From contig JAUPVF010000050.1 of assembly GCA_030917185.1 (NCBI GenBank), positions 1-37,776 on the forward strand: a stretch of DNA of 37,776 nt. The letters run 5' to 3'. Shown one piece after another: positions 5,237 to 31,515 of the stretch. Origin of the DNA: Patescibacteria group bacterium (GTDB taxonomy: Bacteria; Patescibacteriota; Minisyncoccia; Phycocordibacterales; DATDWN01). The notes below the pieces were generated by a model. It had not been told where the DNA came from. It ran no database searches and worked only from the letters and a program-made list of their open reading frames with translations. Made by a program: the position numbers and the translations under genes. The stretch's first letter is position 1. Every line of letters begins with the position of its first letter.

Positions 5237-5257
5237 AATAAAAATCTCTTTCTCATC

Positions 5258-5340
5258 ATATCTTTTTGAAACACGCGTTCGCGACGGGCTGTCGCGCCGC
5301 TCGGCTCTCGGCTACCCGCCTGCGACGGTTTCAAAAAGAT
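5258..5340 (+). repeat. GC-rich nested palindromic element, copy A
   Basis: ATATCTTTTTGAAAC ... GTTTCAAAAAGAT terminal inverted repeats enclose a GC-rich core. It differs from copies B/C only at six positions inside hairpin 5280-5296. Lies 21 nt after the frr stop. Confidence 0.85.
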
Positions 5341-5388
5341 GTGATTTCAACCAGATTTTTATACATTTGATCCATATCAATACAACAT

Positions 5389-6718: not shown

Positions 6719-7999
6719 ATGAGACAATCACAACTTTTTACAAAAACACGCAAGGAGGCCCCAAGTGATGAGGCCCGCCCGAACGACGGTTCAGTCGGGC
6801 AGGCCTCAAAAAATGCACAATTACTCATTCGTGCAGGGTACATCCAGAAAGAAATGGCTGGAGTATACGACTATCTGCCACTTGGGCTACGAGTGTTCAA
6901 AAAAATAGAAAACATAATTCGTGAGGAAATGGATGTTATTGGTGGGCAGGAGATTTTCATGTCATCACTCCAAGAAAAGGAAACATGGGAAAAAACAAAT
7001 CGATGGGACGATAGTATGGTAGATATTTGGTTCAAAACTAAATTAAAAAATGACACGGAACTTGGTTTGGCGATTACGCATGAGGAACCAATTACTCGGA
7101 TGATTACAAAACATGTGCAGTCACACAAAGACCTGCCTTTTTCTGTCTACCAATTTCAAACAAAATTCAGAAATGAAATCCGTGCCAAAAGTGGCATTAT
7201 GCGTACTCGTGAATTTATTATGAAAGACCTGTATTCTTTTGATAAAGATCAGGAAGGATTGGATGAGTTTTATGGAAAAGCATCAGATGCATATGTACGG
7301 ATTTTTGATAGAGTTGGTTTGGGTGAAAAAACATACAAAACATTTGCTTCTGGTGGAGTTTTTTCTAAATATAGCCATGAGTTTCAGACTATTTGCGATA
7401 CGGGTGAAGATGTGATTTATGTAAATGAAAATAAAAAAATTGCAATTAATAAAGAAGTAAATACAGACGAGGTGTTATCAGACCTTGGTATTTCACGGGA
7501 TGAATTAGTGGAACGAAAAGCGATCGAAGTTGGAAACATTTTCAAACTTGGCACGCGATTTTCTGATGCGCTTGGTTTATTGTACGTTGATGAAAGCGGA
7601 GAGAAAAAACCTGTGGTCATGGGTAGTTACGGGATTGGTCCTGGTAGACTGATGGGTACAATCGTTGAATTGTATTCGGATGATAAGGGGATTGTGTGGC
7701 CCAAAGAAGTCGCACCATTTGCTGTTCATCTTGTTCGGTTGGGCGATAGTGAAGCGGTAGTAAAATTTGCAGATGATTTGTATACAGATATTCGTAAACA
7801 AGGAGTAGAGGTCCTCTATGATGATCGTCCGCTTCGAGCAGGAGAAAAATTTGCTGATTCTGATTTGATTGGTATTCCTGTGCGTTTTGTGGTGAGTGAA
7901 AAAACAGTGGCAGAAGGCAAGGTGGAGGTAAAATTCCGTACAGACAATGACTCGGAGTTGTTAACTGCTGAACAAGCGATGGACAAACTAAAAAACTAA
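6719..7999 (+). CDS. proS: prolyl-tRNA synthetase (short form, too short to carry the bacterial INS editing domain)
   Basis: MRQSQLFTKTRKEAP...NAQLLIRAGYIQKEMAGVYDYLPLG, class II aaRS motifs, anticodon-binding C-terminus. Confidence 0.9.
   Translation: MRQSQLFTKTRKEAPSDEARPNDGSVGQASKNAQLLIRAGYIQKEMAGVYDYLPLGLRVFKKIENIIREEMDVIGGQEIFMSSLQEKETWEKTNRWDDSMVDIWFKTKLKNDTELGLAITHEEPITRMITKHVQSHKDLPFSVYQFQTKFRNEIRAKSGIMRTREFIMKDLYSFDKDQEGLDEFYGKASDAYVRIFDRVGLGEKTYKTFASGGVFSKYSHEFQTICDTGEDVIYVNENKKIAINKEVNTDEVLSDLGISRDELVERKAIEVGNIFKLGTRFSDALGLLYVDESGEKKPVVMGSYGIGPGRLMGTIVELYSDDKGIVWPKEVAPFAVHLVRLGDSEAVVKFADDLYTDIRKQGVEVLYDDRPLRAGEKFADSDLIGIPVRFVVSEKTVAEGKVEVKFRTDNDSELLTAEQAMDKLKN
6770..6807 (+). repeat. 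38-bp GC-rich palindrome inserted in frame in proS (codons 18-30)
   Basis: GAGGCCCGCCCGA (6770-6782) pairs with TCGGGCAGGCCTC (6795-6807), 12 of 13 positions, loop of 12 nt. Shares GAG(G/C)CCCGCCCGAACG with the element core at 31467-31482. Confidence 0.8.
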
Positions 8000-28671: not shown

Positions 28672-28711
28672 AAAAATGTAAATAAATTTAATATCTTACA
28701 ATTTCTTTTTC

Positions 28712-28806
28712 CTCATACCTTTTCTGGAAACAGAATAATTTTCTGCTGAAAATTTTCTTCGCGCTCGTGCCCAAGGCACTGCGCGATGTTCCAGAAAAGT
28801 CATGAG
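28712..28806. repeat. 95-bp diverged member of the palindromic element family
   Basis: CTCATACCTTTTCTGGAAACA (28712-28732) versus the reverse complement of 28787-28806 (CTCATGACTTTTCTGGAACA). GC-rich inner hairpin CGCGC..GTGCC caa GGCAC..GCGCG (28760-28785). The termini resemble those of copies A-C. Confidence 0.65.
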
Positions 28807-28871
28807 TCAACGAAATTGTTCAAGTACAATACATGTTACCATAATTCGTCTATTTTTGTTAGAATGGAGGC

Positions 28872-29918
28872 ATGGATATTACAACTATTATTTTTGTGGT
28901 GCTTGCTCTTGGTGTCGGTATGGCTCTTATGTATTTTTTACGTCCGAGTGCTAAACAGGCCGATACTACAGGGCTTAATCTCATCCTACAGCAGATCAAT
29001 GAGTTAAATCGTACGGTGGATAGTAAAATTGGCGAAAGCACACGTCATATGAATGAATCAGTTCGGGTACAATTGGGTGAATCAGCGAATTTGATACGTG
29101 AAGTCACCAAGGGTTTAACACGTCTGGATGAGACAAACCGGCAGGTTGTTTCCTTTGCTGACCAACTCCAAAACCTGCAAGATATTCTAAAAAATCCAAA
29201 ACAACGTGGGGTACTTGGTGAGTATTATTTAGAGACACTTTTGAAAAATGTTTTACCTCCAGGAAACTATCAAATGCAGTACCCGTTCCTTAATGGTGAA
29301 ATTGTGGATGCTGTGGTGTTTGTAAAAGACAAAATCATTCCAATTGACTCCAAATTTTCATTGGAAAATTATAATCGTTTGGTTGAGGCGAATGATCCAG
29401 CCGAGAAAGATCGTTTAGAAAAGTTGTTTGTAAATGACCTGAAACTACGTATTACTGAAACATCAAAATATATTAGACCAGCAGAGGGAACGATGGATTT
29501 TGCTTTTATGTTTATTCCACACGAGGCAATTTATTATGATTTATTGATTAATAAAATTGGTGCAGTTACAGATGATACGGAAAATCTAATCCAGCGTGCA
29601 GCCGGTAAATCTAAAGTTATTATTGTTTCTCCAACTTCATTTTTGGCATATTTGCAGACTGTATTGCAGGGGTTGAAAGCCATGCAGATTGAAGAAACGG
29701 CCAAAGATATTATAAAGCGAGTGGGGGAACTTGGTACTCATCTAAAAAAATATGAGGATTATCATAATAAACTTGGTAATTCTTTGCATACCGTTGTTAA
29801 TCATTTCAATGCGTCAAGTAAAGAGTTCAAAAAAATGGATAAAGACGTGATGCGTATCACTGAGACGGGAGTTGACCTAGATATCCCGTTAATTGAGAAA
29901 CCGGAAGGGGAGGAATAA
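28872..29918 (+). CDS. rmuC: DNA recombination protein RmuC
   Basis: N-terminal TM helix, coiled coil, NPKQRGVLGEYYLETLL and a C-terminal nuclease-like region typical of RmuC. Confidence 0.9.
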   Translation: MDITTIIFVVLALGVGMALMYFLRPSAKQADTTGLNLILQQINELNRTVDSKIGESTRHMNESVRVQLGESANLIREVTKGLTRLDETNRQVVSFADQLQNLQDILKNPKQRGVLGEYYLETLLKNVLPPGNYQMQYPFLNGEIVDAVVFVKDKIIPIDSKFSLENYNRLVEANDPAEKDRLEKLFVNDLKLRITETSKYIRPAEGTMDFAFMFIPHEAIYYDLLINKIGAVTDDTENLIQRAAGKSKVIIVSPTSFLAYLQTVLQGLKAMQIEETAKDIIKRVGELGTHLKKYEDYHNKLGNSLHTVVNHFNASSKEFKKMDKDVMRITETGVDLDIPLIEKPEGEE

Positions 29919-29928
29919 TCGTTAAAAT

Positions 29929-30029
29929 CCCCTCTCATATCTTTTTGAAACACGCGTTCGGGCGGGGCTCGCCCGCCGCTCGGCTCTCGGCTACCCGCCT
30001 GCGACGGTTTCAAAAAGATATAAGAGGGG
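29929..30029 (+). repeat. GC-rich nested palindromic element, copy B (core 29937-30021)
   Basis: The core is identical to the reverse complement of copy C. Extra outer arms CCCCTCTC / AAGAGGGG. Lies 10-18 nt after the rmuC stop. Confidence 0.85.
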
Positions 30030-30088
30030 ATGAATCTAAGTGCTATGGAGTTGCTTTTTTTTGGGTTTTTTTGTATGATACAGGAACT

Positions 30089-31400: not shown

Positions 31401-31515
31401 TTTTGAGGTTTGATCATATCTTTTTGAAACCGTCGCAGGCGGGTAGCCGAGAGCCGAGCGGCGGGCGAGCCCCGCCCGAACGCGTGTTTCAAAAAGATAT
31501 GTCAAACCCTCAAAA
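31401..31515 (-). repeat. GC-rich nested palindromic element, copy C (core 31416-31500), inverted relative to A and B
   Basis: The core is the exact reverse complement of copy B. Outer arms TTTTGAGGTTTGATC / GTCAAACCCTCAAAA. Lies 16 nt after the dnaB stop (minus-strand operon). Confidence 0.85.

What the first reader, a model, noticed from the sequence alone, without database searches (positions are those of the whole stretch)
5258..5340. Copy A of the element differs from B and C only by three fully compensated base-pair swaps
Across the 83 aligned bases, copy A differs from copies B and C at exactly six positions. All six lie in one hairpin. In A it reads CGCGAC-GGGCT-GTCGCG (5280-5296). 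In B it reads CGGGCG-GGGCT-CGCCCG (29959-29975). The loop GGGCT is unchanged and three stem pairs are exchanged (C-G to G-C, A-T to C-G, C-G to G-C). There are no uncompensated changes anywhere else. This is the signature of selection on a folded structure (RNA, or a DNA cruciform recognised by a protein).
Basis: seen in the sequence. Interest (0 to 1): 0.6.

Follow-up and report, generated by a model that had tools for sequence, protein, structure and literature searches.

The report
Mobile hairpin repeat family in Paceibacteria
The three "compensated" base-pair swaps are real, and they mark one conserved hairpin of an 87-125-nt palindromic repeat that is scattered through the tiny genomes of one family of candidate-phyla-radiation bacteria and behaves like small mobile DNA, not like a host RNA gene.

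Summary
Copy A (5256-5340) differs from B and C at six positions, which are three exchanged pairs of hairpin H1 (5280-5296).

Within this genome that is a single dimorphism, not three independent events.
- Six GC-type copies exist. Two carry the A stem and four the B stem, with no intermediates.
- Stem type is shuffled against other markers, which indicates conversion between two sub-lineages or precise insert gain/loss.

The hairpin itself is strongly supported across the family.
- A covariance model finds the 87-nt element in 60 of 61 genomes of the family (506 copies, 0-37 per genome).
- In 102 copies all eight H1 pairs covary and 98.4% of cells are paired. H1 has no G·T wobble (0 of 815 cells).
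- The closing stem shows wobble on one strand only (40 versus 8).

The element is an insertion.
- At the frr-rseP junction, 12 of 30 relatives have a spacer of 15 nt or less. Six carry the element in either orientation.
- It occurs in every kind of intergenic region.

Two copies in this genome also carry a 72-nt three-hairpin element in the loop of the second hairpin.

No Rfam family, no E. coli or phage similarity, and no cognate transposase was found. RNA data were unavailable.

The parts
5238..5362 (+). Copy A, whole palindromic element (about 125 nt). Outer stem S0 is 5240-5247 / 5353-5360. An asymmetric internal loop follows (CTTTCTCAT on the left, ATTTCAACC on the right). The closing stem S1 is 5257-5272 / 5328-5343.
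   Evidence: Inverted repeat I3. CM R1 hit 5257-5344, 60.7 bits. The same S0/loop/S1 layout occurs in most family members.
5280..5296 (+). Hairpin H1 of copy A (A-type stem CGCGAC / GTCGCG, loop GGGCT). It is preceded by the family-conserved CACG (5274-5277).
   Evidence: Family covariation. GCGACGG (5281-5287) is also a direct repeat of 5322-5328, and GTCGC (5291-5295) is complementary to GCGAC (5322-5326), read.
5297..5327 (+). Second inner arm (H2 region, ...CTCGGCT|ACCCGCC...). The bond between 5313 and 5314 is the exact site where the 72-nt three-hairpin element sits in the long copies on contigs C27 and C4.
   Evidence: In the family consensus fold this is the apical loop CTAC of hairpin CGG-CTAC-CCG.
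29927..30031 (+). Copy B. It is the 86-nt unit with a B-type H1 (29959-29975), extended by a copy-specific, complementary outer stem ATCCCCTCT / AGAGGGGAT.
   Evidence: (I5). The outer stem is unique in the genome.
31401..31515 (-). Copy C. It is identical to B over 86 nt, with H1 at 31462-31478 and a different copy-specific outer stem (TTTTGAGGGTTTGA / TCAAACCTCAAAA).
   Evidence: (I1, I4).
28698..28819 (+). S0 is ACAATTTC / GAAATTGT. H1 is the AT-rich AATTTTC-TGCT-GAAAATT (28737-28754). The inner arm is GC-rich.
   Evidence: CM R1 hit 28715-28804, 32 bits, E about 6e-5. Sequence read.

Best explanation
The 85-nt repeat is the core of a non-autonomous, mobile palindromic DNA element. I call it PE; it is 87 nt without and about 125 nt with its outer stem.

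Architecture:
- A long closing stem encloses a three-way junction.
- The first arm is hairpin H1, preceded by a conserved CACG.
- The second arm is H2, whose apical loop can itself carry a nested 72-nt three-hairpin element.

Mechanism (inferred):
- The element spreads through a single-stranded intermediate in which the closing stem and H1 must be base-paired.
- Lineages of the element that keep these helices go on making copies, so changes in the stems are seen only as compensated pairs.

The A and B stems of this genome are two such sub-lineages. Their stems have since been exchanged among copies by conversion or recombination.

Shown:
- family membership, covariation and strand asymmetry
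- insertion polymorphism
- the nested insert

Inferred:
- the single-stranded transposition intermediate
- the level at which selection acts

Unknown: the enzyme that moves the element.
For: Family and covariation:
- CM R1 finds full-length matches in 60/61 genomes of the family, 0-37 per genome, 506 in all, but in only 10 of 120 other genomes of the class.
- In 102 copies, 96.4% of cells are paired vs 68.8% in shuffles. 20 of 21 pairs show changes on both sides. H1 is 8/8 and 98.4% paired.
- Wobble is one-sided: A.C 40 vs G.T 8. This is the same strand on which the nested element shows G.U 71 vs A.C 10.

Mobility:
- B and C are 100% identical at two loci.
- At the frr-rseP junction of 30 genomes (the window's own plus 29 family relatives), 12 have a spacer of 15 nt or less and 2 have a short non-PE spacer. 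This group includes the closest relative by frr identity (G013, 80%, 30-nt spacer). Six genomes, counting this one, carry a PE (4 forward, 1 reverse, 1 with both). Ten carry unrelated palindromes.
- The element occurs in all classes of intergenic region, with only a 42:22 orientation bias.
- Coreless and insert-bearing forms are homologous, and the insert sits at one fixed loop position.

Other:
- H1 is in the minimum-energy fold with DNA parameters.
Against: - No transposase has been tied to the element. Copy number does not correlate with Y1/HUH genes (rho 0.10, p 0.46).
- The genome's IS200 and RAYT-like genes carry other hairpins at their ends.
- No target-site duplication was recognised.
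- The distal stems differ from copy to copy yet stay complementary, which ordinary cut-and-paste does not explain.
- The orientation bias is opposite to what an IS608-type lagging-strand mechanism would predict if the reverse strand is the active one.
- No same-genus genome was available, so no insertion event is dated.
Confidence: 0.6

Rival explanations
1. The compensated changes are produced by mutation, not selection. In quasi-palindromes, replication template switching copies one arm from the other (Ripley-type templated mutation; from my own knowledge, not checked here). A change in one arm is then converted into a perfect pair, and clustered changes arise in one step. Under this view the A stem arose by copying GCGACGG from 5322-5328 into the 5' arm, followed by arm-to-arm correction.
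For: - H1 has 0 G.T and 1 A.C among 815 cells, yet 41 distinct stem sequences. Intermediates expected under stepwise compensatory evolution are therefore missing.
- The A-type 5' arm plus loop start (GCGACGG, 5281-5287) is identical to 5322-5328.
- Three of six pairs differ while 71 other positions show no change.
- Many copies carry copy-specific but perfectly complementary distal stems, with no leftover loop bases.
Against: - Template switching alone does not explain why the loop motif, the CACG and the helix positions are conserved across genera.
- It also does not explain the one-sided wobble in the closing stem.
- The two explanations are not exclusive: correction could act on an element that is also under selection for propagation.
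Confidence: 0.2
2. The element is a host-functional structured RNA, for example a 3'-UTR stabiliser, a terminator or a small RNA. The covariation would then reflect selection on RNA folding.
For: - Strong covariation.
- Strand-asymmetric wobble.
- A three-way-junction fold with z-scores of -6 to -8.5.
- The element has been retained in 60/61 genomes of very small size.
- There is a modest orientation bias relative to genes (42:22, p=0.017).
Against: - The strand that tolerates wobble is antisense to the flanking genes in two thirds of co-directional cases.
- 13 of 94 copies lie between divergent genes.
- The element is present, absent or inverted at the same junction in relatives, and the ancestral spacer is 2-15 nt.
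- Copy number ranges from 0 to 37.
- H1 has no G.U pairs.
- No promoter-like or terminator-like feature common to the copies was recognised on reading them.
- There is no Rfam match.
- With RNA parameters, H1 is not in the best fold of the window copies.
Confidence: 0.15
3. The three swaps are a chance outcome of neutral divergence between copies.
For: Only one independent A/B contrast exists in this genome.
Against: - P = 2.4e-6 for six differences all falling in the stem, before requiring complementarity.
- The family-wide covariation also argues against chance.
Confidence: 0.01

Closest known systems
REP / REPIN elements with RAYT (REP-associated Y1 tyrosine transposases) of Proteobacteria
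   Same: - Both are extragenic, multi-copy and hairpin-forming.
- A short conserved unpaired motif lies next to a palindrome whose stem sequence varies between families (GTAG or CGTC tags in REPs, PMC3733652; CACG 3 nt before H1 here).
- Folding is strand-specific.
- The genome encodes Y1/HUH proteins.
   Different: - The unit is an asymmetric 87-125-nt three-way junction with a 13-16-bp closing stem, not a 20-40-bp palindrome or an inverted doublet of one.
- There is no GTAG/CGTC tag.
- The RAYT-like gene is flanked by a different hairpin (TTGACC-CGTC-GGGTCAA) that occurs only there.
- There is no correlation with Y1 gene content.
Bacterial MITE-like palindromic repeats (Correia/NEMIS, ERIC/IRU, YPAL, RUP, Rickettsia RPE)
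   Same: - They are about 100-170 nt, with terminal inverted repeats that fold into a long hairpin.
- They are intergenic, occur in either orientation, and vary in presence or absence between relatives.
- They are occasionally found inside ORFs (5 of 102 copies here).
   Different: - No sequence similarity to anything in 5,426 E. coli genomes (which hold ERIC and REP) or in phage records.
- No TA or other target duplication was seen, and no parent IS with matching ends.
- The distal stem is hypervariable but compensated.
- The element carries a second mobile element nested in a hairpin loop.
IS200/IS605-derived non-autonomous elements (PATEs) moving as ssDNA
   Same: - Activity appears confined to one strand, and hairpins are the conserved features.
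- For the nested 72-nt element, the 5' junction is fixed: NGT|GAG in about 109 of 124 copies. Its insertions are discrete, including one inside another copy.
   Different: - PE has true terminal inverted repeats, which IS200/IS605 ends lack.
- The ends of the resident IS200 show no similarity to PE or to the nested element.
- The orientation bias is weak.

Membership tests
REP/REPIN (RAYT-mobilised) | A 20-40-bp imperfect palindrome with an unpaired GTAG or CGTC tag at one end (PMC3733652) | tested here: not met
   The consensus from 102 copies has CACG 3 nt 5' of H1. The unit is 87-125 nt and asymmetric.
REP/REPIN (RAYT-mobilised) | A cognate RAYT gene flanked by the repeats | tested here: not met
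   The RAYT-like ORF on C45 (NF047646, 40.8 bits, below the cut-off of 80) is flanked by TTGACCCGTC(A/G)GGTCAA hairpins that occur nowhere else. The correlation of Y1 gene counts with PE copy number is rho 0.10.
MITE | Terminal inverted repeats | tested here: met
   The closing stem has 13 modelled pairs and is 95.2% paired in 102 copies.
MITE | Target-site duplication and a parent IS with the same ends | tested here: inconclusive
   No direct repeat was evident at the frr-rseP insertions. No second pair of S1-like ends enclosing an ORF was found in the 88.8%-complete genome.
Structured non-coding RNA (Rfam family) | Match to a curated covariance model | tested here: not met
   Nothing relevant was found in the window, the long copies, or canonical relatives.
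Structured non-coding RNA (generic) | Covariation supporting a fold, with G.U pairs tolerated on the transcribed strand | tested here: inconclusive
   Covariation is strong. Wobble is one-sided in S1 (40 vs 8) but absent in H1 (0 of 815).
Structured non-coding RNA (generic) | Expression as a discrete transcript | not testable with these tools
Intrinsic terminator | Lies downstream of genes, in the orientation of transcription, with a stem followed by a U-tract | tested here: not met
   13 of 94 copies lie between divergent genes and 22 of 64 co-directional cases are in reverse orientation. The element is absent from the same junction in most relatives.
ERIC/IRU, REP/BIME of enterobacteria | Sequence similarity to the repeats | tested here: not met
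   blastn (word 11) of copy B against all complete E. coli genomes gave no match.

The most novel reading that the evidence does not exclude
PE and its 72-nt passenger may form a two-tier system of hairpin elements that insert into the single-stranded loops of other hairpins.

- The passenger sits 3' of GGT in the apical loop of H2 of PE, and in one case inside the P2 loop region of another passenger.
- Both elements fold on the same strand.
- They persist in 0.5-0.9-Mb CPR genomes without a recognisable cognate transposase.

This would imply a so far undescribed loop-targeting mobilisation mechanism, ssDNA- or RNA-based, possibly supplied in trans by a host or phage enzyme.
Probability: 0.2. 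Interest if true: 0.7.

Novelty: new member of a known kind. Interest (0 to 1): 0.4.

Why it matters
Candidate-phyla-radiation genomes are regarded as streamlined and poor in mobile DNA. Yet one family of Paceibacteria carries a median of 7 and up to 37 copies of this element per 0.5-0.9 Mb, often with a second element nested inside.

The case is also a caution for covariation-based RNA discovery. Textbook compensatory changes can belong to a selfish palindromic DNA element, or can be helped along by templated hairpin correction. Three controls separated the readings here:
- the frequency of G·U pairs
- strand asymmetry of mismatches
- presence or absence at orthologous junctions

These repeats also break short-read assemblies. 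The Logan contigs that encode the flanking genes all end inside the elements. That matters for the quality of CPR metagenome-assembled genomes.

Tried and rejected
- **Long form as ancestor.** I first took the 161-nt long form to be ancestral and the 85-nt form to be a deletion derivative. I rejected this once the CM showed that the 87-nt form is the canonical one in 60/61 genomes, and that coreless copies in other genera have an intact H2 loop.
- **Insertion into existing terminator hairpins.** This was not supported at the frr-rseP junction, where empty sites have only 2-15 nt and no hairpin. The outer stems of B and C are unique in the genome.
- **Ribozyme, tRNA-like or guide-RNA readings of the 72-nt core.** There is no Rfam hit, ARAGORN finds only neighbouring true tRNAs, and no protein gene recurs next to it.
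- **Parent IS.** The IS200 ends show no similarity.
- **Close-strain comparison.** The look-up of encoding contigs returned only short Logan contigs that break inside the repeats.
- **Literature.** Searches found no description of such elements in CPR bacteria.

Full report
**1. The observation**

Copies A (5256-5340, +), B (29935-30019, +) and C (31417-31501, -) are as described.
- A and B are 79/85 identical. The six differences are three exchanged pairs of CGCGAC-GGGCT-GTCGCG versus CGGGCG-GGGCT-CGCCCG.
- B and C are identical over 86 nt (I1).
- The probability that six differences all fall in the 12 stem positions is 2.4e-6.
- Each copy's flanks beyond the shared 86 nt are again inverted repeats, but they differ from copy to copy (I3-I5).

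**2. Other copies in this genome**

The assembly is 568 kb in 60 contigs and 88.8% complete. It holds six GC-type copies.
- C46 carries a B stem and other inner differences.
- C27 carries a B stem and C4 an A stem. Both are 161-nt long forms that equal the short form plus exactly 72 nt inserted between ...CTCGGCT and ACCCGCC....
- Every copy has a perfectly paired stem of type A (2 copies) or type B (4 copies). There are no intermediates.
- All four combinations of stem type and insert presence exist. So either stems have been exchanged among copies, or the insert has been gained or lost precisely.
- The three swaps are therefore one dimorphism between two sub-lineages.
- In the A type, GCGACGG (5281-5287) repeats 5322-5328, which could be a template for a one-step origin.

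**3. The family**

I collected homologues through the 72-nt insert. I then aligned 21 insert-free equivalents (A1) and built covariance model R1 with the closing stem S1 and H1.
- R1 finds full-length 86-89-nt matches in 60 of 61 genomes of the window's family, 0-37 per genome, 506 in all, with a median of 7.
- It matches only 10 of 120 other genomes of the class.
- Public titles of matching contigs name Parcubacteria/Paceibacteria MAGs: Zambryski-, Nomura-, Kaiser-, Taylor- and Yonathbacteria.
- The consensus is ATAACTTTTTTGGAG-CACGGAT-[ATTTTTC TGCT GAAAAAT]-TCCTCAAGTCTCGGCTACCCGCCTTGCGAAGT-CTCCAAAAAAGTTAT.
- Most copies continue outwards into a conserved asymmetric internal loop (CTTTCTCNNC on the left, NNTCAACGA on the right) and an 8-bp outer stem, about 125 nt in total. 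Copy A has this layout.
- The consensus folds into a three-way junction of S1, H1 and H2, with either RNA or DNA parameters.
- A fourth, diverged member lies in the window at 28698-28819.
- The genome holds at least two more members of an AT-type sub-family (C26, C39).
- The window's GC-rich H1 stems are a lineage-specific variant of a normally AT-rich hairpin.

**4. Covariation**

On 102 copies aligned to R1 (A3):
- 96.4% of 2,137 cells are paired. The comparison values are 68.8 ± 0.7% in shuffles (0 of 500 shuffles reach the observed value) and at most 63% with slid partners.
- 20 of 21 pairs show changes on both sides.
- H1 is 8/8, 98.4% paired, with 41 distinct sequences.
- The alignment is fitted to the model, which favours the structure. 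However, the hairpins are also plain in the raw sequences.

Two features go beyond 'a conserved helix'.
- H1 has 0 G.T, 1 A.C and 12 other mismatches in 815 cells. The G.U intermediates expected for an evolving RNA helix are missing.
These lie almost entirely in S1 and are spread over copies from many genomes. So wobble pairs are tolerated only when the opposite strand is folded.
- The nested 72-nt element shows the same polarity (G.U 71 vs A.C 10 on that strand).
- This asymmetry argues against a duplex or cruciform target and for one folded single strand.

**5. Insertion or host RNA?**

I located frr in 30 genomes (the window's own plus 29 family relatives) and read its junction with rseP.
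- 12 have a spacer of 15 nt or less.
- 2 have a 30-50-nt spacer without an element. One of them is the closest relative by frr identity (G013, 80%).
- 6, counting this genome, carry a PE: own, G031, G030 and G018 forward; G080 reverse; G034 one of each.
- 10 carry unrelated palindromes.

The whole 125-nt palindrome is therefore inserted DNA, and the site is a hotspot.

Across 102 copies the element lies between:
- co-directional genes (42 forward, 22 reverse, p=0.017)
- convergent genes (17)
- divergent genes (13)
- within ORFs (5)

This is close to what I would expect for randomly placed intergenic DNA (my own estimate, not computed here). The wobble-tolerant strand is antisense to the neighbouring genes in two thirds of the co-directional cases. 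Nothing here suggests a terminator or a 3'-UTR element.

No Rfam family matches. There is no similarity in E. coli genomes or in phage records.

**6. The nested element**

The 72-nt insert is itself a widespread three-hairpin element.
- Read on its folding strand it is GUGAG-[P2]-CGCAAGACCUUGA-[P3 with tandem G.A and a conserved G.U]-GYGAAAGGUGUAC-[P4, loop UGUAAG].
- It occurs in 47 of 61 relatives and in more than 119 public contigs.
- In PE it always sits in the apical loop of H2.
- In one locus a copy sits inside the P2 loop region of another (L187).
- Its 5' junction is NGT|GAG in about 109 of 124 copies.
- Elsewhere it abuts 23-29-nt duplicates of tRNA-Asn or 5S rRNA.
- It has no orientation bias to genes and no recurrent neighbouring gene.

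**7. Candidate enzymes**

The genome encodes two candidates.
- An IS200 TnpA on C22 (NF033573, 131 bits).
- A RAYT-like Y1 protein on C45, flanked by its own hairpins.

Neither has ends resembling PE or the insert. Y1 gene content does not track PE copy number. The mobilising activity is unknown.

**8. Reading**

The best-supported reading (about 0.6) is that PE is a non-autonomous mobile palindromic element whose S1 and H1 helices must form in a single-stranded intermediate. Compensated substitutions then mark successful sub-lineages, so selection acts at the level of the element.

Templated quasi-palindrome correction (about 0.2, and not exclusive) may account for three things:
- the lack of wobble in H1
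- the clustered A/B change
- the copy-specific, perfectly complementary distal stems

A host RNA function (about 0.15) is not excluded, because expression could not be examined.

**9. Comparison with known kinds and with earlier notes**

The element works like REP/REPIN, MITE or IS200-type palindromic repeats, but it fails the defining tests of each. There is no GTAG/CGTC tag or cognate RAYT, no target duplication or parent IS, and no sequence similarity.

I found no published description.

Earlier notes of this scan had independently flagged copy B as a mobile palindromic repeat, and the 72-nt unit as an undescribed three-hairpin repeat. My tests agree on mobility and on the folding strand. 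I could not confirm the proposed kinship with Yersinia YPAL.

Noticed in passing
G000 contigs C27:11781-11941 and C4:14229-14389; loci L025-L192: A 72-95-nt three-hairpin element is nested in the H2 loop of two PE copies. It has conserved CGCAAGACCUUGA and GAAAGGUGUAC linkers, tandem G.A pairs and a conserved G.U. It is found in 47/61 relatives and in more than 119 public Paceibacteria contigs. One copy is inserted inside another (L187). There is no Rfam match.
   Followed up: partly
L039, L054, L062, L160 (tRNA-Asn); L142, L038 (5S rRNA): The three-hairpin element abuts 23-29-nt duplicates of the 5' part of a neighbouring tRNA-Asn, or of an internal part of 5S rRNA. In L054, L147 and L037 a large serine recombinase gene lies nearby. 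In L039 the tRNA carries a group I intron (Rfam RF00028, 68.5 bits).
   Followed up: partly
window 28698-28819: A fourth, diverged member of the palindromic family with an AT-rich H1, lying between divergent genes.
   Followed up: yes
window 6770-6807: A GC-rich 38-bp palindrome (GAGGCCCGCCCGA ... TCGGGCAGGCCTC) inside the 5' part of the prolyl-tRNA synthetase ORF. Its left arm resembles the reverse complement of the B-type H1 region (CCCGCCCGAACG).
   Followed up: no
frr-rseP junction in relatives (L417, L418, L422, L431, L434, L436, L437, L440, L443, L444): The same 2-15-nt gene junction has been hit independently by at least three other kinds of palindromic or AT-rich inserts in different genera. 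It is a hotspot for hairpin-forming insertions.
   Followed up: partly
G000 C22:1823-2182 and C45:505-819: An intact IS200-type TnpA with hairpin-bearing ends. Separately, a 225-aa RAYT-like Y1 protein bracketed by two copies of the hairpin TTGACC-CGTC-GGGTCAA, which occurs nowhere else in the genome.
   Followed up: partly
G000 C26:10567 and C39:16984 (also C13, C47, C53): A second sub-family of the palindromic element in this genome. It has an AT-rich H1 (AAATCGT-TGGT-ACGATTT) and an extra inner stem (CAAGAAAACAAT ... GTTGTTTTCTAA), about 185 nt in total.
   Followed up: no
window 29903-29918 vs 30020-30037: The right outer arm of copy B (AAGAGGGGATGAATCTAA) resembles the 3' end of the upstream gene including its stop (GAAGGGGAGGAATAA). 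This could be a diverged flank duplication created at insertion, or chance.
   Followed up: no
Logan contigs L193-L195, L316-L320: Short-read assemblies from several runs of one study all break inside copies A, B and C. These repeats therefore fragment CPR MAGs.
   Followed up: no
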